64,000 nucleotides of DNA from Zootoca vivipara (Eukaryota), in assembly GCF_963506605.1 (NCBI RefSeq), contig NC_083277.1, forward strand, positions 17,980,001 through 18,044,000, in the 5' to 3' direction. This document shows, in pieces, positions 1,164 through 62,411 of this stretch; position 1 is the stretch's first letter, and every line of letters begins with the position of its first letter. Under the pieces are notes generated by a model, which did no database searches, was not told where the DNA came from, and saw nothing but the letters and a program-made list of their open reading frames with translations. Both the position numbers and the translations under genes were made by a program.

Positions 1164-1340
1164 TTAGGACGGGCCTGAAGAGTATTGAAAATGAGATAAT
1201 GTCTAACTTCCCCATCATGAGCACCCAAACCATCATTAATACAAAGCAAAAAATAAAAAATAAAAACCTGGCATTTCTGTGAGTTCTTCTTAAATCTTGT
1301 CCTTTTGTCTTCAGCTCCAGCCCAGCCCAAGGAAGAGGCA

Positions 1341-2270
1341 ATGGGTCATGAAAATGTAACATCCTGGACAGAGTTTCATCTTGTGGGGCTTCTGCATCTA
1401 AGGACCCCCACCTTATTTTTTAGCATCCTTCTGTTTATGGCTTTCGTTGCTCTGGTGGGAAACTGTCTCCTGCTGCTCCTAATCCAAATGGACTCCTCGC
1501 TTCATACGCCAATGTACTTTTTCCTTAGTCAACTGTCCTTCATGGATATGGGCCAGGTCCTCATTGTAGTCCCTAAAATGTCTGTGAACTTTTTAACGCA
1601 GAGGAGCACTATTTCGCTCAGCGGTTGTGTTGCCCAGATCTTCCTCACTCTGACCATGGGGAGCTCAGAGAGCCTCGTCCTGGCCGTCATGTCTTACGAC
1701 AGGTACGTGGCCATCTGCAGGCCCTTGCAGTACCCAATCCTCATGCGAAGAACCACCTGCCTCGTCTTGACAGTTGGGATCTGGACTACGGCATTGCTGA
1801 CCATCATGGTCATTGCGATTTACGTCCACTCTCTGCCGTACTGTGGCTCGAACATGATCGACCATTTCGTGTGCGAGTTCCCAGCTTTGCTGAAGTTGTC
1901 CTGTGCCGACACCTCTGCCTTTGAGATCGTGGTATACCTTGACAATGTGGTCCTACTCCTCTTCCCCATCTCAGTCATTGTTTCCTCTTACGTCGCCATT
2001 TTGGTGCAAGTCTTGAGGATGCGCTCAACTGAGGGAAGGCACAAGGCCTTGGGGACTTGCCTGTCCCACTTCTGTGTCGTGGGCATCTTCATTGGGGCAT
2101 CTATGCTGACCTATACCGCCCCTATGGACTCTTACTCAGCACAAAGGGCCATGATCTACTCGGTGTGCATTACTGTTGTCCCCCCAATGCTCAACCCTTT
2201 TATCTACAGCTTGCGCAACAGGGATGTCCTAGCAGCTCTGCGAAAGCTCTTTGTGAAATGCACGCCGTAG
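1341..2270 (+). CDS. Olfactory receptor, class II (OR2-family-like), intact; 'type A' (OR-1)
   Basis: OR motifs LHTPMYFFL, MSYDRYVAICRPLQY, HFVCE, KALGTCLSH, PMLNPFIYSLRN; N-glycosylation site NVT; ATG at 1341 lies just after a pyrimidine-tract/AG acceptor (1313-1314). Confidence 0.95.
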   Translation: MGHENVTSWTEFHLVGLLHLRTPTLFFSILLFMAFVALVGNCLLLLLIQMDSSLHTPMYFFLSQLSFMDMGQVLIVVPKMSVNFLTQRSTISLSGCVAQIFLTLTMGSSESLVLAVMSYDRYVAICRPLQYPILMRRTTCLVLTVGIWTTALLTIMVIAIYVHSLPYCGSNMIDHFVCEFPALLKLSCADTSAFEIVVYLDNVVLLLFPISVIVSSYVAILVQVLRMRSTEGRHKALGTCLSHFCVVGIFIGASMLTYTAPMDSYSAQRAMIYSVCITVVPPMLNPFIYSLRNRDVLAALRKLFVKCTP

Positions 2271-2775: not shown

Positions 2776-3407
2776 GAACAAATAAAATGAATGTATGTGG
2801 GCAGAAAGACAGCAAAATATGGAAGATGGAAACATAGAAAGAGAAGGGCTGAAGCAATAAGGTAACTCACAGGGTCTAATTCAGGTTGATTAAGGGTGTT
2901 GATCATTCTAATAGAATAATGCACCAGTTCTAGGGATCAATACAGCTATTTCACTGCAGGTAAAGTCCGTTTCTACAGTAGCTAGTCCTTCAGAAACACA
3001 AGAGTGAAATTGAACACTTTTTAAATCTAGAGCATCCTCTGACTCTCTGCAATGCACATCACGCTTATCACTCAGAGCAAAAACCAAAGCACACACAGAG
3101 ATCTGGGGCATGTGCAAAGTTCCAATTGCACTGAGCTAGTTAATAACAAGGTGCTTATGATCTTTATCCACACATTTTGCTCACCATTTTATCTTCTGTA
3201 ACCATTTTGGCAGATTTTATCCACAAAGCCATTTTATCCTCTGCATGCTGTTTTGGCATTTTGTAAGACTAAACAGATTTCTACTTTGTCCAAACAGGGA
3301 CTCAGCAATCATGTGCTAATTCCCCCTAGAAATTAAGGAACAATGCAACAACCCCATGGCATAGCATGACTCGGGGCACATAATCTTGAAATATCATGCC
3401 TACTTGG

Positions 3408-4573: not shown

Positions 4574-4972
4574 TACTGGGAAAACTAGCTTTAACTATAT
4601 GGACCTTTGTCAGCAAGCTGATGTCTCTGCTTTTTAAGATGCTGTCTAGGTTTGCCATTGCTTTTCTCCCAAGAAACAGAAGTCTTTTAATTTTGTGACT
4701 GCTGTCACCATCTGCAGTGATCATGGAACCCAAGAAAGTAAAATCTCTCACTGCCTCCATTTCTTCCCCTTCTGTTTGCCAGGAGGTGATGGGACCAGTG
4801 GCCATGATCTTGGTTTTTTTGATGTTGAGCTTCAGACCATATTTTGCGCTCTCCTCTTTCACCCTCATTAAAAGGTTCTTTAATTCCTCCTCACTTTCTG
4901 CCATCAAAGTTGTGTCATCAGCATATCTGAGGTTGTTGATATTTCTTCTGGCAATCTTAATTCCGTCTTGGG
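4574..4972 (-). mobile_element. BovB internal fragment
   Basis: GIKIARRNINNLRYADDTTLMAESEEEL near-identical to the 46.6 kb copy. Confidence 0.9.
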
Positions 4973-5500
4973 AATTCTCTATTTTCATTGGAGAAATGTT
5001 GGAGGGTATGGAGTTATCCAGCCCCTGAGTCGCCTGAAGGCAATCCTGTATAGGGAAGTTTTAAAAGAATGTTTAATGTTTTATTATGTTTTTATATATT
5101 TTGGAAGCAGCCCAGAGTGGCTGGGGCAACCCAATCAGATGTGTGGGGTATAAATAGTAAAATTATCAATATGGAATGGGACGTTCTTATTTTCATTGGC
5201 AAAATGTTGGAGGGTATGTATAATATACTCAGCACTGAGGCCTTGGTTGGCAGCTAAATAATTGTGAGCCAGATTCTTAATAACTGATAATAAATGAACC
5301 CCATTCACCCTCTACATATTAGGGAGGTGTCTGCAGCCCATATTGAAGCAGCCTGTATTGGAGAAATTCTGACAACCTTAGAACTGATGCTACCCTGATG
5401 CTAAGTATTCTTGAGTTATGCTCAACCCAAATTGTTGGACCAGTTAAAAAGGTTTGGTGTCAGATTGAAAGCCCAATTCAATACATATTTATGCCTCTCA

Positions 5501-5640
5501 NNNNNNNNNNNNNNNNNNNNNNNNNNNNNNNNNNNNNNNNNNNNNNNNNNNNNNNNNNNNNNNNNNNNNNNNNNNNNNNNNNNNNNNNNNNNNNNNNNNN
5601 NNNNNNNNNNNNNNNNNNNNNNNNNNNNNNNNNNNNNNNN
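5501..5640. other. Assembly gap (N run)
   Basis: 140 N. Confidence 1.
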
Positions 5641-5722
5641 CCAAGTTATCCCTTTTTTAAAGGGATTTTCCCTTATGCTGAATAGGCTTCCTCGTGAGAA
5701 AAGGGAAAACTTGGCAGCTATG
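5641..5722 (+). mobile_element. 90-bp hAT MITE (left end hidden by gap)
   Basis: Near-identical to 58479-58568; ends AACTTGGCAGCTATG. Confidence 0.75.
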
Positions 5723-5733
5723 CCCAGATCCTT

Positions 5734-5939
5734 NNNNNNNNNNNNNNNNNNNNNNNNNNNNNNNNNNNNNNNNNNNNNNNNNNNNNNNNNNNNNNNNNNN
5801 NNNNNNNNNNNNNNNNNNNNNNNNNNNNNNNNNNNNNNNNNNNNNNNNNNNNNNNNNNNNNNNNNNNNNNNNNNNNNNNNNNNNNNNNNNNNNNNNNNNN
5901 NNNNNNNNNNNNNNNNNNNNNNNNNNNNNNNNNNNNNNN
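5734..5939. other. Assembly gap (N run)
   Basis: 206 N. Confidence 1.
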
Positions 5940-6160
5940 CCACCTTTCAATCCCTTTCAAGAGTCTCAAAATGGCTAACAGTCTCCTTTACCTTCCTCCT
6001 CCACAACAAACACTCTGTGAGGTGAGTGAGGCTGAGAGACTTCAAAGAAGTGTGACTAGCCCAAGGTCACTCAGCAGCTGCATGTGGAGGAGCGGGGAAG
6101 CAAACCCAGTTCACCAGATTACGAGTCCACCTCTCTTAACCACTACACCACCCTGGCTCT
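5940..6160 (-). mobile_element. tRNA-derived SINE (Squam3-like)
   Basis: Minus strand GAGAGCCAG..GGTGTAGTGGTTAAGAG head; same family at 16159 and 23180. Confidence 0.8.
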
Positions 6161-6619
6161 CATCAGTTCCAATAAAGTAAATTATGATGGAAAGGCAAAC
6201 TCCCAGCTACATTCAAATATCCCCACAGGAGCGTATTTTCTCTACCCTCTTGAGAAATTCCCTCTAGTCCAGAGAGCTTCTGTGTTGGGATGTGGGCTAC
6301 AGGTGAGAGAGTCAGCCACTCCTTCAGACCGCTCTTGCTCTCCCTTGGAAAGGTTGACAAGTATTTGGACAGGTAGGAGGAGACCTAGAAAGGGACAGTT
6401 ACAGAGACATAAGGTATAAAGGGAATCAAGCAGAAGAACGTCAACCTCATCAAAGAACAGGGAGAATGAGAACTGAATGGAGGCTTGTACTTCTCCCCAG
6501 AATCTTCTGCTCCCTCATTCATGTTATTTAGTGGACATTAGCTTGGAGGAACCCATGTCTGCAGAAGCAGCATATGGTGCTATCTTTAGATTCCCATTAT
6601 CTAATGGGGCAGGCAATAT

Positions 6620-9640: not shown

Positions 9641-9953
9641 AATAAAATAAAATAAATTAGCATATAACATTATGGTGGGAAACTCTTTGAAAGGGGCAGC
9701 CTGGGCTGGATCTATGTCCTCTCTTCCCAGGTTTCCTCCATTTCTCCAACAGGATGGTTTTAGCTGCATAGCTTACCTACAAAAACCACTTGTAACTGAA
9801 GATGGCATGTTTTATTTTTAAATGTTGTCATTCCACAGTTATAATATTAAGGGTGCTTTACCTAATTTTTTTCACAGGAAAGTGTGAATTCCATTCCCCA
9901 CATGTTCTCTCCTTGTATCTTACTCAGCTGAAATCCGGACAAATGAAGAAGGA

Positions 9954-10865
9954 ATGGAGGATGAGAATAAAACATCGTGGACGGAGTTTGTTCTTGTTGG
10001 ACTTCAGCATCAGAAGTCGCCCACCCTTTTCCTTGGCGCCATCCTCTTCATGTCCCTTATCGCCCTCCTTGGAAACAGCCTCCTCCTGTTCTTAATTAGA
10101 GTGAGCTCTGGCCTTCGGACCCCAATGTACTTTTTCCTCAGCCAACTGGCCTTCATGGACCTCTGCCAAGTTCTCTCCATTGTTCCCAAAATGGCCGTGG
10201 ATTTCGCAACCCACAGCTACACCATTTCACTCTATGGATGTGTCGTCCAGATTTTTGTCACGCTGGTCATGGGAGGAGCAGAGTGCCTCATCTTGGCAAC
10301 CATGTCATATGACAGGTACGTGGCTATCTGCAGGCCGCTGCAATATCCGGTCCTCATGAGGAGCAAAATCTGCAACATCATGTCAGTCGCTTCCTGGTTC
10401 TGGTCTTCTGTGCAAGCCCTGAACTGTTCCCTCTATGTGCTGCCTCTTCCCTACTGCAAGTCCAATGTGATTAGACACATCGGTTGTGATTATACAGCAC
10501 TTTTAAAGCTTTCTTGCTCTGACAATTCTGCATTTGAAAAATCAATATACCTCGGAACATTCCTAGTATTCCTCATCCCCATCACAATCATCCTAGCTTC
10601 CTACACAGCCATCCTCCTTCAGGTCCTGAGGTCCCGCTCCTCCGGAAGTAGCCACAAGGCCCTGGGGACCTGCTTGTCCCACTTGTGTGTGGTGGGGGTC
10701 TTCTATGGTGCGGCCATTTTAACATACATGACACCCGTATCTTCCTATTCAGCAGAAAAGGCTATGATCAACTCAGTGTTCATGACCATTGTCCCAGCCA
10801 TGCTGAACCCATTCATATACAGCCTGAGGAACCGGGATGTTCTAGCAGCTCTGAGGAGACTTTAG
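9954..10865 (+). CDS. Olfactory receptor, class II; 'type B' (OR-2), C-terminus shortened by an early TAG
   Basis: LRTPMYFFL, MSYDRYVAICRPLQY, KALGTCLSHL, PAMLNPFIYSLRN; acceptor AG at 9926-9927; 303 aa. Confidence 0.93.
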   Translation: MEDENKTSWTEFVLVGLQHQKSPTLFLGAILFMSLIALLGNSLLLFLIRVSSGLRTPMYFFLSQLAFMDLCQVLSIVPKMAVDFATHSYTISLYGCVVQIFVTLVMGGAECLILATMSYDRYVAICRPLQYPVLMRSKICNIMSVASWFWSSVQALNCSLYVLPLPYCKSNVIRHIGCDYTALLKLSCSDNSAFEKSIYLGTFLVFLIPITIILASYTAILLQVLRSRSSGSSHKALGTCLSHLCVVGVFYGAAILTYMTPVSSYSAEKAMINSVFMTIVPAMLNPFIYSLRNRDVLAALRRL

Positions 10866-24653: not shown

Positions 24654-25260
24654 CTCCCAAGAAGCAGGTGTCTTTTAATTTCACGACTGCTGTCACCATC
24701 TGCAGTGATCAAGGAGCCCAGGAAAGTAAAATCTCTCACTGCAATGACAAACCTAGACAACATCTTAAAAAGCAGAGACCTCACCTTGCCAACAAAGGTC
24801 CGTATAGTTAAAGCTATGGTTTTCCCAGTAGTGATGTATGGAAGTGGGAGCTGGACCATAAAGAAGGCTGATCACCAAAGAATTGATGCTTTTGAATTAT
24901 GGTGCTGGAGGAGATTCTTGAGTGTCCCATGGACTGCAAAAAAATCAAACCTATCCATTCTGAAGGAAATCAGCCCTGTGTGCTCACTAGAAGGACAGAT
25001 CCTGAAGCTGAGGCTCCAATACTTTGGCCACCTCATGAGAAGAGAAGACTCCCTGGAAAAGACCCTGATGTTGGGAAAGATGGAGGGCACTAGGAGAAGG
25101 GGACGACTGAGGACGAGATGTCTGGACAGTGTTCTTGAAGCTACGAACATGAGTTTGACCAAACTGCGGGAGGCAGTGGAAGACAGGAGTGCCTGGCGTG
25201 CTCTGGTCCATGGGGTCACGAAGAGTCGGACACGACTAAACAACTAAACAACAACAACAA
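24654..25260 (+). mobile_element. BovB 3' fragment with 5' inversion (24654-24742)
   Basis: Sense part from 24741; TSD AATCCATGCTC (24646-24656, 25259-25269). Confidence 0.9.
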
Positions 25261-28892: not shown

Positions 28893-29831
28893 TCACGGAA
28901 GTGCCTTCAGTTTCCTGAACAGTTTCCCTAAGGCTGCTAGTACATCCCGGTTTCTCAGGCTGTATATAAAAGGATTCACAGTGGAGGTGACAATTGTGCA
29001 CAATGCAGCAAAAATCTGGTTCATCTCTGCTGAGTAGGAGGAGGCTGGCCTTAGGTGCCGCAAGATGGCCGACCCATAGAAGATGGCTACTACACACAAG
29101 TGTGACGAACAGGTGCCCAGTGCTTTGTGGCTTCTTTCTGCTGAACGCTTAGCCCTCAGAATCTGCAGGAGGATGGACACGTAGGAGGCCACAATGATGG
29201 AGAAGGGGAACAGAAGCAATAGATGGCTACCAATTAATAACGACACTGTTTCAAAGAGGGATGTATCTGAACAGGACAACTTTATCAGGACGTGGAACTC
29301 ACAGAAAAAATGGTTTATCACATTTGATCCACAGTATGAAAGAGTTAGTAAATAAATTGCTTTCATCAATGCATAATGGAAAGATGAAATCCATACACTG
29401 GCTGACATGACTAAGCATAACTTTCTTCTCATGAGAGCTGGATATTGCAGAGGGCGGCAAATGGCCACATACCTGTCATATGACATGACAGCCAACAGGA
29501 GGCACTCTGCTCCTCCTATGTTCAGAATGAGGAAAACCTGGGCCACACACCCAACCAGAGAAATCGTTTTGGACTCTGTTGCAAAATCCATTGCTGCTCT
29601 GGGAACAATGACGAGGACTTGGCACATATCCATGAAGGACAACTGGCTGAGGAAAAAATACATTGGAGTCTGAAGACTTGAGTCCACCTGGATCACAACC
29701 AGGAGGAGACTATTTCCTAGCAAAGCAACCATGGACATCAATAGGAAGACAGCAAAAGAAATAGCTGGTAGCTTTGTTTGGCTTAGAAAGCCCAGGAGAA
29801 CAAGCTCTGTCCGATTATGTTGCATTTCCAT
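28893..29831 (-). CDS. Olfactory receptor, class II; more divergent 'type C' (OR-4), intact
   Basis: MEMQHNRTEL start, LQTPMYFFL, MSYDRYVAICRPLQY, HFFCE, KALGTCSSHL, NPFIYSLRN; acceptor AG on minus strand at 29867-29866. Confidence 0.93.
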   Translation of the reverse strand: MEMQHNRTELVLLGFLSQTKLPAISFAVFLLMSMVALLGNSLLLVVIQVDSSLQTPMYFFLSQLSFMDMCQVLVIVPRAAMDFATESKTISLVGCVAQVFLILNIGGAECLLLAVMSYDRYVAICRPLQYPALMRRKLCLVMSASVWISSFHYALMKAIYLLTLSYCGSNVINHFFCEFHVLIKLSCSDTSLFETVSLLIGSHLLLLFPFSIIVASYVSILLQILRAKRSAERSHKALGTCSSHLCVVAIFYGSAILRHLRPASSYSAEMNQIFAALCTIVTSTVNPFIYSLRNRDVLAALGKLFRKLKALP

Positions 29832-31233
29832 GTCCCATTTCTCGTTTCGTCTGACTTCCTGAGATCTGAAAATGCAAGGAGACATTTGGGAGGGAAACAA
29901 AGCCACAAAATGCTAGACGTTTCTACACATTCTTTTCTTTTCTTGAATGGCTAATTCACTGAGCATCAACAAATGGACAGCTTCCCCACCCCCCACCCCA
30001 AAAAAAGCCCTACTGATTTATTTATTTTAAAGCATAATTGAATGAAATTTACGTAGAAAATATATTTGCTAATTGCAGTCACCTTTATATAAAATATATA
30101 TACTCAGAGAAGGCCCATTTAAGGTCCATTGATTTCAAAGGATTGTAGCCAATAAGGTTGTCCTGTTTGTGCAAGAAGTTCCACCTGTGCAATAGGATTT
30201 CTTCTCTGTCTCCCCTCATTGTGTTCTGTTCTGGGTCCCCCACCCTACCTTCAGGGATAGATTTGGGAGGTCAAGCAGAGGGGAAGCCTTGTGCTGGCAA
30301 AAGTCTGGAATAAGAATGCCATTTCAAGGAGATATTACCCAAGTCAGATTCCATTGAACCAATATACAAACTGAGTTACCATTCAAGATGCAAACGTCTC
30401 CAGATTTTGGGCTATTTCTCTTCAGCCAACCAAGGTGCACACAAAAATGTGTATATTATGGGAACCTGACCCACTCGCCACAATTATTGGCAGGTGCTGT
30501 TGCTCCTTTGCCTTGCAACTGGTACCCCCTGCTCGCTTGTCAGAAGCAGCCAATGAGCAAGCAGGCAGTGACAGCTTCTTTTCTCCTCCTCCTCGCCTCT
30601 GTTGTAGTTTGGGTGGTCATCCCTTCTGGGGTGGCAGAGCAAGAGGAAGGTGAGCAAGCAGTTTGCAGACATGAACAGCAGGCGTCAATAGCCCCCTCTC
30701 CTGGGATGAGGGGCCTTGGCCCAGGCCAGTCAACCCTCAACACCAGCCTTGCCTTGACCAAAACCATCAGGAAGCCGCTTGCTTGTTCCACATTTCACAG
30801 TCAGCTCAGTTTTATCTCCTTGTACGAAACTCAAAGGAAAAGCTCGTTCACGATTTATATGGATAGATAAAGGAAGAATAATTCTGCTTGAATAACTGGG
30901 GACATGCTATAGTTAAACAAAAGTCTGAGCTGGAACATGCACAGCTGGTGAAAAGATGGGAAATGAATAGAAATTAGGAAAAAGTATGTTATTGTGAGCA
31001 GCAAAGGAAGGAGAGAAAAGAAATAACTGGAAGGGGGTGGGAACCCATCATTTGAATTTGTTTTAAATTTGAATTAATTTGTTGTTTTTATAAAAAAAAA
31101 TCAATTGGCAAATTTAAAAAAAGGAAAAGCTCATTCATACATTCTTCTTTTGTGGAGGATATAAAGCTAGGCTTGCTATCCTAACACTTAACTTTAAACT
31201 TACTTCTGGGTAGACATGGTAGTAACTAGCTAT

Positions 31234-38010: not shown

Positions 38011-38810
38011 GGATACATTTGCTGAATTTAAAGCTATGACAAACTTAGTTGGTCTCTAAGGTGCTACTGGAAGGAATTTTTTAATTTTGTTATGGTTAAT
38101 CTTGTTCCCAGTCATGTCCTTCTTGCTTGATACTTTAAATGTAGGTGAGGGGAGTATATTCCTTCAAACTGGTTGGAGGATCTCAAATCTCAATGCAGCA
38201 CCAATTACATTTACATATTGCAGTGGTGTCTTTTATTTCATGTAACTAATATTTTCCCATTTCTAAGGTCCTGGTCCTATATATAGATTGTCAGTAAGAA
38301 AGCACATGAGTCAATACAGTGCAAGCTTTATAAAGACCCTGCAGCTGGTTAGTATAGCTAATTTGCAAAATAACCCCCGTGCTGTTTGTTTCCATTTCAT
38401 AAAGGACAGCAGATATTTCCCCTCCACTGCTTAAGCAAGCTAGAAACAGCATGAGCCTCAAACCAGAGAACTGCCTTTAGCATGGAAGGAAGTGGAGTGT
38501 TTGTGCAATAATGATAGCGCTATGAGAACTGGTTGGCTTTGGAGATCAGGAGCTTCTCCCAGCCCAGATCAGCTCGGGAAAGGCTGGGTCTCCCTCTGGG
38601 TGCTGGGAATACAGCAATCACATAAACTCCAAGTTCCTTGTTCCTCTCTGTCTTCTCCCATCAGGTCAATAAACTCCACGAAGGGCTCCTCTGAGATACC
38701 ATCCCAAATAGAATCAAATACTGATCGGAGTAATAGTGTAGAGACATCACCAAAGAGATGTGCTAAACATGTGTCTATCTGTGCCAATTCTGCAGTCAAG
38801 CTTTTAGGTA

Positions 38811-38947: not shown

Positions 38948-39222
38948 TTTTAGTACATATTTCTGCTCCCAACTCCATATTCCCCTTCCCCATTATATGG
39001 CAGATCAGATACAGGGAAGCCAATATCCACCAGTGGATCCCTGTTGCTGGCATGATGTGCGAACATTGCATGGGGCATCATTAGTTTTAAAATGTTGGGT
39101 TTTGTTTTGTTTTGTTTCCCCACTGCTAAAATGCTGATGATCTGTAATATGGCACTGCACTGCATGACTTCCGCAACTTCGCTCTTTTTTTCTTAGATAA
39201 AATCCTGGCAAAAATAAGAACA

Positions 39223-40158
39223 ATGGGAGAGGAGAATACAACATCGTGGACGGAGTTTGTTCTCGTTGGGCTTCGGCATCAAAAATCACCCAACATTTTC
39301 CTCGGTCTGGTTCTCTTCATGTTTGTCATCGCCCTGCTTGGAAACAGCCTCCTGCTTTTCCTGATCAGGACGGACTCTGGTCTCCAGACCCCAATGTACT
39401 TCTTCCTCAGCCAGTTGTCTGTCATGGACCTCTGCCAGGTTCTCTCCATCGTTCCCAAAATGACCGTGAATTTCGTAACCCAGAGGTACACCATTTCACT
39501 CTACGGATGCGTCGTCCAGATTTTTGTCACACTGGCTGTGGGGGGATCAGAATGCCTCATCCTGGCTACCATGTCATATGACAGGTACGTGGCTATCTGC
39601 AGACCTTTGCAATACCAGGTTCTTATGAGGAGGAAAGTCTGTTACATCTTGTCAGCTTTCGTCTGGTTCTGGCCTTCTGTCCAGGCAATGACAAGTTCCC
39701 TGTATGTACTGCCTCTTCCCTACTGCAAGTCAAATGTAATTTACCATAACCTCTGTGAATATCCAGCCCTTATAAAGTTGTCCTGCTCAGACAATTCCAA
39801 ATATGAAATAGTAACCTTCCTTGGTACCTTCCTGATACTCCTGCTCCCTCTCTCAGTCATCCTCGCTTCCTACATTGCCATCCTCCTGCAAATCTTGAGG
39901 GCACGCTCCTCCGGAAGTGGCCACAAAGCCTTGGGGACATGCCTGTCCCATCTCTGTGTGGTGGGACTCTTCTATGGAGCGGCCATTTTAACATATATGA
40001 CCCCAGTATCCTCCTATTCAGCACAAAAGGCAATGATCAACTCGATATTTATTACCATCGTGCCTGCCATGATGAACCCTTTCATATACAGCCTAAGGAA
40101 TCGGGATGTCTTGTCAGCACTGAGGAAAATATTTGCAAAATCCACATTACATAAATAG
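39223..40158 (+). CDS. Olfactory receptor, class II; 'type B' paralogue of OR-2 (OR-5), intact
   Basis: MGEENTTSWTEF, LQTPMYFFL, MSYDRYVAICRPLQY, KALGTCLSHL, PAMMNPFIYSLRN; acceptor AG at 39195-39196. Confidence 0.95.
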   Translation: MGEENTTSWTEFVLVGLRHQKSPNIFLGLVLFMFVIALLGNSLLLFLIRTDSGLQTPMYFFLSQLSVMDLCQVLSIVPKMTVNFVTQRYTISLYGCVVQIFVTLAVGGSECLILATMSYDRYVAICRPLQYQVLMRRKVCYILSAFVWFWPSVQAMTSSLYVLPLPYCKSNVIYHNLCEYPALIKLSCSDNSKYEIVTFLGTFLILLLPLSVILASYIAILLQILRARSSGSGHKALGTCLSHLCVVGLFYGAAILTYMTPVSSYSAQKAMINSIFITIVPAMMNPFIYSLRNRDVLSALRKIFAKSTLHK

Positions 40159-41712: not shown

Positions 41713-43173
41713 TCACATTACTCACACTTTGAATAAGGGGCAGAACAACCTCTCTTTTAAAGAAAAAGGTTCACTTTTGGAGGTGGAATTTTGCTTTTGG
41801 TTCTTAGGTTAAAGGGGAGAGAGGGGACTTTATTAGCAGATTTGGACACAACCAAGGGAAGAAGACTGGTTTGAAGTTGGCCTTGCCAGGTTCCTGTTAC
41901 CTACTAAAATCAAGTGGGCAGGATTGGAAAAGAGATCATTACATATCAGGATAGGTATATCCTTTAGGAATCATGTTGAATAGTATCTAACAGAAGATAC
42001 ATATTGAATTATTTTGTTTTTTGTTTTTGTTTTATCTTTTTCTTTCTTTTTCTTTGCTTGTCCTTTTTGTTTTCTTTTTCTTTCTATTTATAGATGTTGA
42101 GATGTATGATTCTAACTTTTATCTTATTTGATTTATAGAGCAGTTATCAATGTATGTATTTGTTAACTATGTATTTATTTGCATGTTTAGAAAACATAAA
42201 AAATAAAGGGATACAATGCATTACCAATGCAACAAGGAATTATTTGAAATAAAAATGCTGAATAAATATGTAGGAATTGCATTTCATTTTCATTGAAGGG
42301 AAGAAGATTTGCATGAAGTTCCTAAGTATGTTTGTTTAAGATATAAGTGGCCTTCCATATATTTTTGTCACAATGACCCTAAACCTCTTACTTTCCAATC
42401 TGTTTGTTGAAGCTGAAAGAAAAAGTATATTGTTTTAACAATTGCATCTTTCTCTGCATTTTTGAGAATGCTTATTTATTATTTCCATTTATAAGCTGCC
42501 TCTCATTCTGTAGGATCCTAAGGCACTAAATGTAGTGTACACCATAAAGGAATAAACAATTAATTAAATCATCATTTAATTCACATGGACTAATAAAAGT
42601 ATTGATAGCAACTTAGTGCAGCAGCAGGAAAAAAAGAATAGATGGACACAGTGCTTTTTTTTCTTTAAAAAAATGTTTAGGGGTACTCTCATTTTCCTGC
42701 TCATATTAAAATACTGCCCCTCAATGAGGCCAAACTTAAATTCACAAAATGTTTAAGGGTATGTGTACCCCTGCGTACCCCCGGAAAAACTATTCTATTT
42801 AGTCTTATTATAAAGTTATTGTAAGTTTAAGTTAAGTCTGCTGCAATTGGATTTTTTATTGGGCAGTGCCGATCCTGAATGTATTGGATTTCTGACCATT
42901 ATGCTCATTTGGCCTCAGTAGCAGTAAAGCTCTTCTGGATGAAATATAATTGCCTCTGGTCTATTTTTGGGGAAGCCTGCAATGTGTTTAAGTTTTTACT
43001 CTGCTAACTACAGTATACGTCAGAGTTCTGCTCTGGATCAATAAGAGTAGAATTTCAATGACAATCTAATGCCATGCCAACCCTGCTTGCCTCACTGCAG
43101 TCAACAAAATGTTGTGGCCTGTTTCCGCCCACATCTGTGTCCTATGTGTTATTTGTTCTCTACCTGACCTTGA

Positions 43174-44359
43174 ATAGAAGGGGAAGAAATGGAGGCAGTG
43201 AGAGATTTTACTTTCTTGGGCTCCTTGAGGAGGACCCAAGCAGAAGAGCAGAAAAGCACTCTCCCCTCTTGCAGTTTCCAGAAGCAGACAGCCAACCTTG
43301 GAGGGTTGTCGAGCAGGGGTAATCTTAAATACTGTATGGGTATTGTGTTGTGTGCTATGAACTGGACACTAAGGGCCATGTGAAGATCTTGTTCTTAGAT
43401 TTATCTAAGATAAATGAAGTCTAAATTTAATCGAGCACTGTACGTGGGAATATACACCAGCTTTCCTGCAGACAAGTTAAGGCAAGAACCTCAAAATGCA
43501 ATTTGCATATTTGTTTTTAAAATAAAAAATTATTTATGATTTTCAATTTTATACATTTCAATAATTTTACAATCATTTAAACATTTCGAAACTTGACTTC
43601 CTTCTCCCTCTTTCTGTGGTTCCTTAAATTTATTTTTTATATTTTCTGCATATTCCAAATTAACTTACTCTGCATATTCCAAATGAACTCATTGCTCAAC
43701 ATAAAAAAAAAACCCATTACCTCCTGGCAAATAGAAGGGGAAGAAATGGAGGCAGTGAGAGATTTTACTTTCTTGGGCTCCTTGATCACTGCAGATGGTG
43801 ACAGCAGTCACGAAATTAAAAGACGCCTGCTTCTTGGGAGAAAAGCAATGACAAACCTAGACAGCATCTTAAATAGCAGAGACATCACCTTGCCGACAAA
43901 GGTCCGTATAGTTAAAGCTATGGTTTTCCCAGTAGTGATGTATGGAAGTGAGAGCTGGACCATAAAGAAGGCTGATCGCCGAAGAATTGATGCTTTTGAA
44001 TTTTGGTGCTGGAGGAGACTCTTGAGAGTCCCATGGACTGCAAGAAGATCAAACCTATCCATTCTTAAGGAAATCAGCCCTGAGTGCTCCCTGGAAGGAC
44101 AGATCGTGAAGCTGAGGCTCCAATACTTTGGCCACCTCATGAGAAGAGAAGAATCGTTGGAAAAGACCCTGATGTTGGGAAAGATTGAGGGCACTAGGAG
44201 AAGGGGACGTCAGAGGACAAGATGGTTGGACAGTGTTCTCGAAGCCACCAACATGAGTCTGACCAAACGGCGGGAGGCAGTGGAAGACAGGAGTGCCTGG
44301 TGTGCTATGGTCCATGGGGTCATGAAGAGTCAGACACGACTAAACGACAAAACAACAAC
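43174..44359 (+). mobile_element. Chimeric BovB insertion carrying a copy of 27806-28248
   Basis: TSD ACCTGACCTTGA (43162-43173, 44360-44371); BovB 43174-43228 and ~43695-44359. Confidence 0.9.
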
Positions 44360-44757
44360 ACCTGACCTTGAGGAGGGAGTAACCTCAATGCGCCCACCAT
44401 ACAAACACCATTGACCAGCTGGCTACCAGGCCAACTACTATGGGCATAGCCAGGATTTATGTTGGGGAGGCAAGACAGAGCTACCTGCAATTGCGATTGG
44501 TCAGTTCATGGAAGCCACACCTATCGTTTCCTCGGGTTCTCAGCTGCGGCGCTAGAATTGCGCAGCAACCTCATCCAAGTGACTTCAGCGAGCATTTCAA
44601 TTTCAAATATTCTGATTGTTTCTACTTTTAGCTAAGTATTATTATTTTTTATTTACGCGCATGGCAATTACTACAACCTCCCATACTTGCCAAAACAAAC
44701 AGCGAACAGCACAGGGAAACCTTAGGTTGCGGGGTTGGCAGAAGGAAAAGTCTAGAG

Positions 44758-45080
44758 CAGGGGTCCCCAAACTAAGGCCCGGGGGCCGGATACGGCCCAA
44801 TCGCCTTCTAAATCCGACCCGTGGACGGTCTGGGAATCAACATGTTTCTCATGAGTAGAATGTGTTTTTTTTATTTAAAATGCATCTCTGGGTTATTTGT
44901 GGGGCCTGCCTGGTGTTTTTACATGAGTAGAATGTGTCCTTTTGTTTAAAATGCATCTCTGGGTTATCTGTGGGGCATAGGAATTCGTTCATATTTTTTT
45001 TTCAAAATATAGTCCGGCCCCCCACAAGGTCTGAGGGACAGTGGACTGGCCACCCTGCTGAAAAAGTTTGCTGACCCCTG
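44758..45080 (-). mobile_element. hAT (Charlie-like) MITE
   Basis: TIRs CAGGGGTC..AAACT; TSD GTCTAGAG/GTCTATAG. Confidence 0.9.
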
Positions 45081-45130
45081 GTCTATAGCAAAAGCTCATC
45101 CAAAGGAAAAAGCATTTCGTCGTCATTTGT

Positions 45131-45144
45131 CCACTAGAGGGCTC
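45131..45144 (+). promoter_or_regulatory. CTCF-like motif
   Basis: CCACTAGAGGGCTC matches CTCF core CCASYAGRKGGC. Confidence 0.45.
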
Positions 45145-45407
45145 CGGGTTTTGCTAGGTCGGAGATAGGATGATGATAATACCAGTAATAATCAAGAAAG
45201 ATTTTGGGTTGGGGGGAGGGCAGAGAAATAAAAAGAGTACTTATTCAGTTTATTTTCAAAGGAACTCTTCCATTGTCTTCTTGTTCCACCCAGCAAATGC
45301 CTCTGCAAATTGAATTTTTTCCCCCTGCACTTGACAGAACTCTAACAGAATTAAAATAAAAAAATTCCTTCAGTAGCACCTTAAAGACCAACTAAGTTTT
45401 TATTTTG

Positions 45408-45445
45408 GTATGAGCTTTCATGTGCATGCACACTTCTTCAGATAC
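45408..45445 (-). ncRNA. Minimal type I hammerhead ribozyme motif in Penelope terminal repeat
   Basis: GTAT-CTGAAGA-AGTGTGCATGCACAT-GAAA-GCTC-ATAC: core CUGANGA/GAAA, stem II hairpin, palindromic AGCT stem III, GTAT/ATAC stem I. Confidence 0.7.
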
Positions 45446-46574
45446 AGTGAAATGGAAGTTTCCAGGCACTTATGTAGAGAAGGGGTGGGGAGGGGTGGGG
45501 ATGGGGAGGGGGGATCACTCAGAAGGGTGGTGGAAATGGGTGATTGACTGACTGATAGCTGTTGATGACCGCAAACGACTGCAAATGGTTTTGCATGAAA
45601 AAGCAAGGGTTGAGATGGCTGAAGATCGCTTATCATGTATAATGAGATAAGAACCCGATATCTCTGTTCAAACCAGGTCCCTCCATGGTTTTGAGCTTGG
45701 TGATAAGTTGCAATTCAGCAACTTCTCTTTCCAGTCTATTTCTGAAATTCTTTTGTAGTAAGACAGCTACTTTGAGATCTTGTATAGAATGTCCTGGGAG
45801 ATTGAAGTGTTCTCCTACTGGTTTTTCTGTCTTCTGGTTCCTGATGTCAGATTTATGTCCATTTATCCTTTGGCGTAGGGTTTGGCCTGTTTGTCCAATA
45901 TAGAGAGCTGAAGGGCACTGTTGGCATTTGATGGCATACACAATGTTAGAGGATGAGCAATTAAATAGTCCTGAGATGGTATGTTGGATGTTGTTGGGGC
46001 CAGTAATGGTGTTGTCTGGGTGTATGTGGCAGCAAAGTTGGCATCTGGGTTTATTGCAGGCTCTGGTACCAGTGTCCATGTTAAGTCTGGTGGTTGTATT
46101 ATTGTGGGTGAGGAGTTGTTTAAGATTGGGTGGCTGTCTGTAGGCAATGAAAGGTCTTCCTCCCAGAGCTTGAGAAAGGGAGCGGTCATTGTCCAGGAGA
46201 GGCTGTAGATCTCTGATGATGCGTTGTACTGTTTTAGCTTGGGAGCTGTATGTGATGACTAGTGGTGTTCTGTTATTTTCTTTTTTGGGTCTGTCTTGCA
46301 GCAGGTTCTCTCTAGGTATCTGTCTGGCTCTGTTGATCTGTTGTTTAACTTCATCAGGTGGATATTTTAGTTCTAAAAAGGTTTGCTGTAGATCTCTTAG
46401 GTGAGATTCTCTGTCTGTAGAGTTGGAACAGATGCGGTTGTAACGTAAGGCCTGGCTGTATACGATGGATTGTTTGGTATGTTTGGGATGGTAGCTAGAA
46501 GCATGTAGATATGTTTGTCGGTCAGTTGGTTTTCTGTATAAGGTGGTGTCTATACGTCCATCCTGTATTTTTAT

Positions 46575-47968
46575 TGTTGTTTAGTCGTTTAGTCGTGTCC
46601 GACTCTTCGTGACCCCATGGACCATAGCACGCCAGGCACTCCTGTCTTGCACTGCCTCCCGCAGTTTGGTCAAACTCATGTTCGTAGCTTCGAGAACACT
46701 ATCCAACCATCTTGTCCTCTGTCGTCCCCTTCTCCTAGTGCCCTCAATCTTTCCCAACATCAGGGTCTTTTCCAAGGATTCTTCTCTTCTCATGAGGTGG
46801 CCAAAGTATTGGAGCCTCAGCTTCACGATCCGTCCTTCCAGGGAGCACTCAGGGCTGATTTCCTTAAGAATGGATAGGTTTGATCTTCTTGCAGTCCATG
46901 GGACTCTCAAGAGTCTCCTCCAGCACCATAATTCAAAAGCATCAATTCTTCGGCGATCAGCCTTCTTTATGGTCCAACTCTCACTTCCATACATCACTAC
47001 TGGGAAAACCATAGCTTTAACTATACGGACCTTTGTCGGCAAGGTGATGTCTCTGCTTTTTAAGATGCTGTCTAGGTTTGTCATTGCTTTTCTCCCAAGA
47101 AGCAGGCGTCTTTTAATTTCGTGACTGCTGTCACCATCTGCAGTGATCAAGGAGCCCAAGAAAGTAAAATCTCTCACTGCCTCCATTTCTTCCCCTTCTA
47201 TTTGCCAGGAGGTGATGGGACCAGTGGCCATGATCTTGGTTTTTTTGATGTTGAGCTTCAGACCATATTTTGCGCTCTCCTCTTTCACCCTCATTAAAAG
47301 GTTCTTTAATTCCTCCTCGCTTTCTGCCATCAAGGTTGTGTCATCTGCATATCTGAGGTTGTTGATATTTCTTCCAGCAATCTTAATTCCGGCTTGGGAT
47401 TCATCTAGTCCAGCCTTTCGCATGATGAATTCTGCATATAAGTTAAATAAGCAGGGAGACAATATACAACCTTGTCGTACTCCTTTCCCAATTTTGAACC
47501 AATCAGTTGTTCCATATCCAGTTCTAACTGTAGCTTCTTGTCCCACATAGAGATTTCTCAGGAGACAGATGAGGTGATCAGGCACTCCCATTTCTTTAAG
47601 AACTTGCCATAGTTTGCTGTGGTCGACACAGTCAAAGGCTTTTGCATAGTCAATGAAGCAGAAGTAGACGTTTTTCTGGAACTCTCTAGCTTTCTCCATA
47701 ATCCAGCGCATGTTTGCTATTTGGTCTCTGGTTCCTCTGCCCTTTCGAAATCCAGCTTGCACTTCTGGGAGTTCTCGGTCCACATACTGCCTAAGCCTGC
47801 CTTGTAGAATTTTAAGCATAACCTTGCTAGCGTGTGAAATGAGCGCAATTGTGCGGTAGTTGGAGCATTCTTTGGCACTGCCCTTCTTTGGAATTGGGAT
47901 GTAGACTGATCTTCTCCAATCCTCTGGCCATTGCTGAGTTTTCCAAACTTGCTGGCATATTGGGTGTA
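46575..47968 (-). mobile_element. BovB (RTE-clade LINE), 5'-truncated, open RT frame, nested in Penelope
   Basis: WPEDWRRSVYIPIPKKG, FIDYAKAFD, GVRQGCILSP, LRYADD; (CAA)n tail; 10-bp TSD GTATTTTTAT at 46565-46574 and 47969-47978. Confidence 0.95.
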
Positions 47969-48951
47969 GTATTTTTATAGTAGTGTCCAAAAAATGTATT
48001 TCTTGCATAGATTGGTTCATTGTTAGGTTGATGGTGGGGTGAAAGTCATTGAATGTCTGGTGGAAGGTTTCCAGGGTCTGTTGTCCATGTGTCCAGATAA
48101 TAAAAATATCGTCAATGTATCGCAGGTACAGGAGAGGTTTGAGTGGGTAGGAGTTAAGGAAACGTTGTTCTAAATCTGCCATGAAGATGTTGGCATACTG
48201 TGGGGCCATGCGGGTGCCCATGGCTGTGCCGCTGATCTGGAGGAACAGGTCATCACCAAATTTGAAGTGGTTGTGGGTAAGGACAAAGTGGCAGAGTTTG
48301 GTAGCAAAGTCCGCTGTGGTTTTATCTGAAATGGTGTTCCTTATGGCTTGTAAACCATCATTGTGTGGGATGTTGGTATATAGAGATTCCACATCCATAG
48401 TGGCTAGTATAGTATTGTTAGGAAGATTGTTCAAATATCTAACAGAATTGACAGTGAAATCCCGTGCGAACATTCCCGGGGAGTGAGTTTCATTGAACTC
48501 AATGATACTTACTTCCGAGTAGACATGCACAGCTCAATATGAAGCTTAAAATCTGCAAATGCAAATCTTCCCACACACTTACCAGACTCACACACGCAGC
48601 CTGATCAAGCACCACGTGGCACTCAAAAGCTCGCACGGAGTATCTTCAAGAGCAAATTGCCTTTAAAAGAATAAATGATTTTAGAACACCTCCCTCCTCT
48701 CGGGAGTTCTGCACTGAATCTGAAGAACAGGGCGCTGCACCGCAACCCCGATGCACAGCGAGGTCGATGCGTGTGTGCGAGCGCCTTGCCGCTTTGACAG
48801 AAGGAAGGCGGCTGGCGCTTCTCTGCCTCTGCAAAAGATCGGCATAAAACGCAAAGGAAATACCTGGAAACTAAATGCGGATGGAGGCACGTATACCCGT
48901 GAATTAGCATACTGCTAATTAGGATTCAGCTAGGAAGCTACAAGCGTCAGT

Positions 48952-61579: not shown

Positions 61580-61728
61580 CAGTGCTTTTTTTCTGGGGGG
61601 GGATGCAGGGGGACGCATAGCCCTAAACATTTTGTGAATCTAAGTTTGGCCTCATTGAGGGGCAGTACTTCAATATGAGTAGGAAAATGAGAGTACCCCT
61701 AAATATTTTTTTGGGGGGGGGAGCACTG
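61580..61728. mobile_element. hAT MITE
   Basis: CAGTGCT..AGCACTG ends; TSD ATTAAATA/ATTATATA; opposite-orientation relative at ~42650-42790. Confidence 0.75.
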
Positions 61729-61857
61729 ATTATATATATTTTAGGTGGCAGGTGGATGATTAATATTCTGCAGCCTTTGAAATGTGCTTGTGTGCTCCTG
61801 TTTTGACCAATTATACGTGCTTTTATCTTGTGAACTGCCCTGAGATGAAGAGCAGTA

Positions 61858-62195
61858 CAGTCGTACCTTGGGTCTCGACTGCCTTGGCTCCTGAACAAAT
61901 CGGCTCCTGAACAATCGAAACCCATAGCTGCCAAGTTTTCCCTTTTCTTGCGAGGAAGCCTATTCAGCATAAGGGAAAATCCCTTTAAAAAAGGGATAAC
62001 TTGGCAGCTATGTCGAAACCTGGAAGTGAGTGTTCCTTTTTCGAATGGTTTCCGGAAGCTGGACCTCTGGTGCAGCTTCCAACTGGCTGCAGGAGCTTCC
62101 TGCAGCCAATAAGAAGCCGCGCTTTGGTTTCCGAACGTTTTGGAAGTCAAACGGACTTTTGGAACGGATTCCATTCGACTTCTGTGGTACGACTG
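61858..62195. mobile_element. Tigger-like MITE containing nested 90-bp hAT MITE
   Basis: CAGTCGTACC / GGTACGACTG ends with TA flanks. Confidence 0.8.
61923..62012 (-). mobile_element. 90-bp hAT MITE
   Basis: Reverse complement of 58479 copy; perfect TSD TCGAAACC. Confidence 0.93.
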
Positions 62196-62411
62196 TATAT
62201 AAACCTAGTAAATAATAATAACATAATAATAATCTCTGCTTCTGACTGTGGAAGCACAGCATATCCATCATTGCCAGTAGCAATTGCTAGCCTTGTCCTC
62301 CATGGGTTGATCTAACCCTCTTTTAAAGGCATCCAAGCTGGTGGGCAACGCTGCCTCTTGGAAGAGCAAATTCCAGTTTTGACTATGCACTGTTCCCTTC
62401 TCATGCCCTAG

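What the first reader, a model, noticed from the sequence alone, without database searches (positions are those of the whole stretch)
45633..48530. In-frame double reverse transcriptase: Penelope RT fused to BovB RT, one stop codon away from a GIY-YIG nuclease
Seen: the 649-codon ORF joins Penelope RT core (DVESLY, GTAMG, YIDD) directly to BovB RT (DYAKAFD, QGCILSP, YADD) at TTIKI|LHPIC. Insert plus TSD is 1404 nt, a multiple of 3, so after the single BovB TAA (46583-46581) the frame continues stop-free (hand-translated TTIKIQDGRIDTTLYRKPTD...) into the Penelope thumb and GIY-YIG domain to 45633: ~965 codons with one internal stop. First in-frame ATG (48473) comes from flanking DNA, ~480 bp from and divergent to the CpG-rich tRNA locus, a plausible promoter. 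Inference: raw material for a chimeric RT-RT-endonuclease element. Honest prior: both frames match by chance 1 in 9 for co-oriented young elements, and the Penelope RT lacks its N-terminus.
Basis: partly seen in the sequence, partly recalled or inferred. Interest (0 to 1): 0.7.

Follow-up and report, generated by a model that had tools for sequence, protein, structure and literature searches.

The report
One-off nested jumping genes, frames aligned
In a lizard genome, one broken young jumping gene (BovB) landed inside another broken one (Penelope-type), joining their reading frames; the join occurs once in the genome and is likely a chance accident with no function.

Summary
In detail: the minus-strand frame 48533-45633 has one internal stop, at 46583, and the BovB insert plus its 10-nt target-site duplication (TSD) spans 1404 nt.

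Both junctions occur once in the 1.44-Gb assembly, against 812 Penelope and 3,433 BovB copies with the same words. Both families are young and nearly identical to this copy, so intact frames carry no sign of selection. The site fits BovB's published target signature. The Penelope part lacks 435 of 901 residues. The BovB part lacks its endonuclease, linker and RT0 region.

Two partly read RNA runs show zero and about 3-fold depth on the unique 5' flank. My rough estimate gives a 1-52% chance per genome of one such double in-frame nesting. The scan noted a similar one-off transposase-RT fusion in another genome.

Verdict: an ordinary nested insertion, likely functionless.

The parts
48438..48449 (-). 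5' copy of the 12-nt TSD of the outer Penelope (Neptune-type) insertion
   Evidence: exact repeat with 45341-45352
45341..45352 (-). 3' copy of the 12-nt TSD of the outer Penelope insertion
   Evidence: the junction lies in one contig of each of DNA runs X2 and X6, with 24 letters on the Penelope side (table 8)
47979..48437 (-). 5'-truncated Penelope RT palm (residues about 460-612 of the 925-codon stop-to-stop frame of natural copy L069)
   Evidence: identical to most sampled copies
47969..47978 (-). 5' copy of the 10-nt BovB TSD; its last base also matches BovB (1-nt microhomology)
46575..47968 (-). 5'-truncated BovB (RTE-clade LINE): last 462 of 1036 codons, own stop at 46583-46581, 6-nt trinucleotide tail
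   Evidence: 98.6-99.9% identical to 29 other copies
46565..46574 (-). 3' copy of the 10-nt BovB TSD
45633..46564 (-). Rest of the Penelope ORF: RT thumb, linker with a CX4CxxC cysteine motif, GIY-YIG endonuclease, stop at 45635-45633
45353..45632 (-). Penelope 3' UTR / pseudo-LTR; ends about 40 nt short of where the next unit's ATG would lie. A hammerhead-like core is visible by eye near 45400-45450 (recalled motif; no Rfam hammerhead hit)
48450..48533 (-). Flank-derived start of the open frame, with in-frame ATG at 48473 and out-of-frame ATGs at 48526 (5 codons) and 48493 (20 codons, overlapping the main ATG)
48952..49061 (+). Intron-containing tRNA gene (anticodon CAA, Leu, read from the sequence), divergent from the ORF; a bystander
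   Evidence: Rfam RF00005, 50.3 bits; missed by ARAGORN in bacterial mode

Best explanation
Two independent recent insertions are nested here, a 5'-truncated BovB LINE inside a 5'-truncated Neptune-type Penelope copy, and their frames likely line up by chance, leaving a likely functionless single-copy fossil. Step 1 (shown by the 12-nt TSD): a Penelope cDNA of about 1.7 kb, already missing 435 codons, inserted near a tRNA gene in an olfactory-receptor cluster. Step 2 (shown by the 10-nt TSD, the tail and the empty site in other copies; the mechanism is inferred): BovB endonuclease nicked a typical BovB target inside it, and target-primed reverse transcription stopped after 1.39 kb. Step 3 (inferred): each junction had a 1-in-3 chance of keeping frame. 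BovB has no 3' UTR, so only its stop and a short tail separate the two frames. Step 4 (inferred): too little time has passed for stops or frameshifts to arise.
For: Single copy: the 5' junction has 1 match at 0 and at 3 mismatches and the 3' junction 1 match at 2 mismatches. Only this locus covers both sides among 40 scored of 1,486 DNA candidates and 150 scored of 10,752 protein candidates; the one other long hit was a plain Penelope fragment. All 29 other Penelope loci fetched have the empty site. Both families are abundant and young: 812 and 3,433 exact-word copies, 40 of 40 scored Penelope hits 100% identical over 675 nt, 150 of 150 scored BovB hits listed at 100% amino-acid identity. The target has a T run about 11 nt upstream and T then A at the TSD start, the Tn-TA signature of PMC13295347. 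Nesting recurs: 1 of 30 sampled BovB loci sits antisense in an older Penelope copy. None of the 120 listed database proteins (of 485 hits) matches both halves. RNA depth on the unique flank is 0 in X23 and about 3 or less in X24.
Against: No disabling change has occurred, and the two BovB differences private among 30 copies are both silent. These alleles are not private genome-wide, though: about 10-17% of DNA depth at those sites lacks the majority base. The chance estimate is not high on narrow counts: 1-9% per genome, against 8-52% on wide counts. X24 has a few reads on the flank between the tRNA and the ORF, mostly in the orientation expected for minus-strand RNA if the library is stranded, which is unknown. 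Only about 6% of each RNA run was read, tissues are unknown, and junction-spanning reads were not visible in the cut tables. The outer insertion is in at least two DNA samples, so it is not private to the assembled animal.
Confidence: 0.93

Rival explanations
1. The locus is transcribed from the CpG-rich tRNA neighbourhood and makes the 630-residue protein, whose BovB half would be an endonuclease-less RT with residual primer-extension activity and an inert Penelope palm in front.
For: The BovB half holds the whole Pfam RVT_1 core and aligns to L1 ORF2p 489-831. Tower deletions do not abolish L1 RT activity in vitro (PMC10830420, passages). CpG observed/expected near 0.8 upstream. A few X24 reads on the flank.
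Against: tRNA genes use internal Pol III promoters (established knowledge). Two out-of-frame ATGs precede the start and one overlaps it. X23 has no flank reads. The X24 flank depth equals about 312 letters in the bin 48384-48517, close to the 320 expected if four reads stop at the TSD, which hints at an empty allele (weak). RT0 and the part matching L1 residues up to 488 are missing. Hundreds of fuller BovB ORFs make it redundant.
Confidence: 0.04
2. It is the founder or a daughter of a hybrid element that is copied in trans by Penelope or BovB machinery.
For: The Penelope 3' end is intact and both families keep full-length ORFs in this genome. A CR1-in-Harbinger hybrid that multiplied is described in turtle (bioRxiv 10.1101/2021.11.26.470093, passage).
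Against: No second copy in the assembly. The BovB 3' end is internal. The copy ends about 40 nt before the next unit's ATG, whereas the one PLE studied in vitro needs the first 172 nt of its ORF on the template (PMC11167929, passages; a Poseidon element, so by analogy only).
Confidence: 0.02
3. Assembly artefact joining two repeats.
For: Both parts are high-copy repeats, and I could not see the inner junctions in independent DNA runs (tables cut).
Against: Two nested exact TSDs, a proper tail and a typical BovB target site are not what misjoins produce. The outer 3' junction is in contigs of two DNA runs.
Confidence: 0.01

Closest known systems
Nested retrotransposon insertions; squamate BovB insertions with the Tn-TA signature (PMC13295347, abstract and results section read)
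   Same: 5'-truncated BovB, trinucleotide tail, TSD starting with A after T, T run about one helical turn upstream.
   Different: The target happens to be another RT ORF, co-oriented and in frame at both ends.
Neptune/Nematis-type endonuclease-bearing Penelope-like elements (PMC8557442, passages read)
   Same: RT followed by a CX2-5CxxC linker and C-terminal GIY-YIG; the family shows tandem and inverted copies.
   Different: This copy lacks its first 435 residues and is split by BovB between palm and thumb.
REP-21_CPB of turtle, a CR1 fragment inside a PIF/Harbinger transposon (bioRxiv 10.1101/2021.11.26.470093, passage read)
   Same: A hybrid made by one element landing in another.
   Different: That hybrid multiplied to thousands of copies; this one is single-copy.
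Ruminant p97Bcnt, a host gene that recruited the RTE-1/BovB endonuclease (seen only as reference titles and one introductory passage in PMC4613681)
   Same: BovB coding sequence fused in frame to other sequence.
   Different: p97Bcnt is an expressed host gene with the endonuclease domain; here the RT is joined to another transposon and expression is not shown.

Membership tests
BovB (RTE-clade LINE) insertion | RT closely matching BovB | tested here: met
   460 of 468 residues identical to a full-length copy in the same genome; 90-95% to lacertid database entries over the matched half
BovB (RTE-clade LINE) insertion | Trinucleotide tail and TSD of about 10-13 nt with Tn-TA signature | tested here: met
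Autonomous BovB | N-terminal APE endonuclease and RT0 region | tested here: not met
   insert starts at codon 575 of 1036; the endonuclease is at 99-331 of the full copy
Neptune/Nematis-type PLE | C-terminal GIY-YIG preceded by a CX2-5CxxC linker | tested here: met
   Pfam GIY-YIG 25.1 bits, cutoff 22.6; cysteine motif in the translation. Neptune versus Nematis was not resolved by a tree.
Neptune/Nematis-type PLE | Hammerhead ribozyme in the pseudo-LTR | tested here: inconclusive
   no Rfam hammerhead hit at E<=5; a core-like motif is seen by eye only
Autonomous PLE | Complete ORF with the N-terminal conserved motifs and RT fingers | tested here: not met
   435 of 901 residues absent; RVT_1 positions 1-60 absent
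Mobile hybrid element (REP-21_CPB type) | Several dispersed copies sharing the junction, each with its own TSD | tested here: not met
   1 copy of each junction
Domesticated transposon gene | Transcribed and translated | tested here: inconclusive
   flank depth 0 and about 3 in two partly read RNA runs; junction reads not visible
Domesticated transposon gene | Orthologues under purifying selection | not testable with these tools
   no related genomes are held; too few changes for dN/dS

The most novel reading that the evidence does not exclude
A newborn RT-RT fusion gene: the CpG-rich tRNA neighbourhood drives a transcript that yields a 630-residue Penelope-palm/BovB-RT protein, and rare read-through adds a GIY-YIG nuclease to an RTE-clade RT. 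That would be a snapshot of the endonuclease-swapping step proposed for retroelement evolution.
Probability: 0.04. Interest if true: 0.6.

Novelty: new member of a known kind. Interest (0 to 1): 0.12.

Why it matters
As it stands it matters little. It shows that when two young retrotransposon families are active together, and one of them (BovB) has no 3' UTR, long multi-domain open frames arise for free and should not be read as genes. If it were expressed or spreading, it would be a living example of an RT acquiring a foreign endonuclease, a step inferred for PLE and LINE history (PMC8557442 discusses endonuclease acquisition and exchange; passages read).

Tried and rejected
ARAGORN found no tRNA (bacterial mode); Rfam did. 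A DNA search with the BovB part returned nothing because common words are skipped, so it is uninformative; the protein search worked. The second-best junction hit on C7 (65% over 127 of 147 residues) proved to be a Penelope fragment without BovB, and three near-junction DNA hits showed no Penelope match. The sigma-70 scan is irrelevant to a vertebrate and was not used. No Rfam hammerhead hit. PDB gave no significant match for the full Penelope protein, so its domain limits rest on Pfam and motif positions. No structure prediction was run, because folding two known RT pieces would not decide function. Whether the inner BovB insertion is present in other animals could not be read. Paper searches for a Penelope-BovB or double-RT chimera listed none; one search returned 0 papers. 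These cover only the held library, and I read no supplements. The tRNA-promoter search gave listings only, none used.

Full report
Observation. The minus-strand frame from 48533 to 45633 has one internal stop, TAA at 46583, and ends at 45635-45633. It reads as a 650-codon ORF and a 315-codon continuation. Pfam finds RVT_1 in two stretches of the first and GIY-YIG in the second. The 10-nt BovB TSD copies lie 1404 nt apart and the first in-frame ATG is at 48473. An intron-containing tRNA lies at 48952-49061 on the other strand. The host is likely a lacertid lizard, since the best database matches are Zootoca and Podarcis entries at 90-95%. The window also holds olfactory-receptor-like ORFs (recognised from recall).

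A 12-nt exact repeat flanks the whole Penelope copy (48449-48438 and 45352-45341), so its N-terminus was lost at insertion. Against natural full-length copies from the same genome, the Penelope part starts at residue 460 of a 925-codon frame whose first Met is residue 25, so 435 of 901 residues are missing, including RVT_1 positions 1-60. BovB then splits the palm from the thumb. The BovB part is the last 462 of 1036 codons. It aligns to human L1 ORF2p from residue 489, whereas the full copy aligns from residue 65. It therefore lacks the endonuclease, the tower-equivalent linker and the RT0 region; placing RT0 just before this point is from recall. In fairness, L1 tower deletions keep RT activity in vitro, and R0 is described as important for template jumping (PMC10830420, passages), so residual polymerase activity of the BovB half is not excluded. 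The cysteine linker before GIY-YIG places the outer element in the Neptune/Nematis type (PMC8557442, passages); I built no tree.

Copy number. The 5' junction has one match in the 1.44-Gb assembly at 0 and at 3 mismatches, and the 3' junction one at 2 mismatches. A DNA query across the 3' junction (40 scored of 1,486 candidates) and a protein query across the 5' junction (150 scored of 10,752) found both sides only here; the runner-up was a plain Penelope fragment. By contrast, 812 Penelope copies carry the word ending at the TSD and 3,433 BovB copies carry the word at the insert's start. All 29 other Penelope loci fetched have the empty site. In the protein database, 119 of the 120 listed hits (485 in all) match only the BovB half, 1 only Penelope, and none both; that search covered proteins of 346-1103 residues only.

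Age and selection. All 40 scored Penelope hits are 100% identical over 675 nt, and this copy differs from the sampled majority at one site, in the 3' UTR. The BovB part is 98.6-99.9% identical to 29 others and differs from their majority at 5 sites, within the range of 2-14 for the others. These samples are the top hits and so lean towards close copies. Two differences are private in the sample and both are silent. That runs against my reading only weakly, because about 10-17% of DNA depth at these sites also lacks the majority base. An open frame is thus the default for these families (many 925- and 1036-codon frames) and dN/dS has no power. With a recalled squamate rate of 1-3 per 10^9 sites per year, the insertions are likely under a million years old.

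Mechanism and chance. The target has a T run ending about 11 nt upstream and T then A at the TSD start, the Tn-TA signature reported for reptilian BovB (PMC13295347, abstract and results). Of 34 other BovB loci examined, 13 gave a TSD (9-13 nt, 11 starting with A), 5 gave none, 14 ran beyond the fetched DNA and 2 were not parsed; 4 of the 13 have a length divisible by 3. BovB's stop is followed directly by its tail, which is why only 6 nt separate it from the TSD here. One of 30 sampled BovB loci is also nested in a Penelope copy, antisense and in an older one. A rough model (copy counts, target size, an assumed 0.2-1 for insertion order, 0.5 for orientation, an assumed 0.6 for truncation, 1/9 for frames) gives 0.3-22 nested events and a 1-9% (exact-word counts) or 8-52% (wider counts) chance of at least one double in-frame case per genome. 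For this one pair of families it is somewhat lucky. Across many family pairs and windows it is expected.

Expression and polymorphism. Four of 24 listed runs were laid on 44900-48900; about 6% of each RNA run was read and tissues are unknown. X23 has zero depth on 48518-48900. X24 has about 3, 1 and 0 in those three bins, with 4 of 4 reads differing from the assembly at 48490. Its depth in the bin holding the TSD fits reads that stop at the TSD (312 letters against 320), a weak hint of an empty allele. Depth on the Penelope 5' piece, pooled over all copies, is under 6. Junction-spanning reads could not be seen because the tables were cut. The outer 3' junction is in one contig each of X2 and X6, with 24 letters on the Penelope side, below the tool's 31-letter bridging rule. 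Two out-of-frame ATGs precede the start, one overlapping it, and a tRNA gene is a Pol III unit (established knowledge), so the promoter idea has no support beyond CpG content.

Could it spread? The BovB 3' end is internal. The Penelope end stops about 40 nt before the next unit's ATG, while the anole Poseidon element needs the first 172 nt of its ORF on the template (PMC11167929, passages; analogy only). Hybrids that multiplied do exist (turtle REP-21_CPB, bioRxiv 10.1101/2021.11.26.470093, passage), and BovB coding DNA has been recruited into a host gene (p97Bcnt; reference titles in PMC4613681). This locus shows neither sign. Searches listed no paper on a Penelope-BovB double-RT frame; I saw those results as listings, apart from the passages named above.

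Verdict. Observation confirmed; interpretation partly supported; best explained as a chance in-frame nested insertion without function (0.93). Interest 0.12.

Noticed in passing
L075:2641-6203 (G000:C2, about 32.085 Mb; also L055): A second BovB nested in a Penelope copy: 2.47 kb, antisense, in the 3' end of an older copy (87-95% to the young family), with a 12-nt TSD.
   Followed up: partly
window 1257-2270, 9888-10865, 20681-21715, 28893-29912, 39148-40158: Five long ORFs that look like intact olfactory receptor genes (recognised from recall, not scanned).
   Followed up: no
window 48952-49061: Intron-containing tRNA-Leu(CAA) in a CpG-enriched stretch (observed/expected about 0.8) inside the receptor cluster.
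   Followed up: partly
window 5405-6180, 16076-16561, 61623-62204: Similar translated stretches recur at these places (5698-6180 with 16076-16561; 5405-6025 with 61623-62204 on the other strand), suggesting local duplications; the first contains N runs.
   Followed up: no
L067-L074: Young Penelope copies end at two preferred points about 40 nt apart (reference positions about 3090-3097 and 3127-3136) and often sit as tandem or inverted pairs.
   Followed up: no
window 4574-4981, 15087-15435, 23886-24156, 24654-25259, 43173-44360: Further short BovB fragments at 94-100% identity to the young family; Penelope remnants at 18728-19311 and 38041-38088.
   Followed up: no
window 48490: All 4 RNA reads of run X24 differ from the assembly here (T to C on the plus strand) while DNA runs X2 and X6 do not; an allele or RNA editing, undecided.
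   Followed up: no
P0018, P0026, P0042, P0114: BovB-like RTs at about 80% identity are filed under bacterial names in public databases, likely host-DNA contamination.
   Followed up: no
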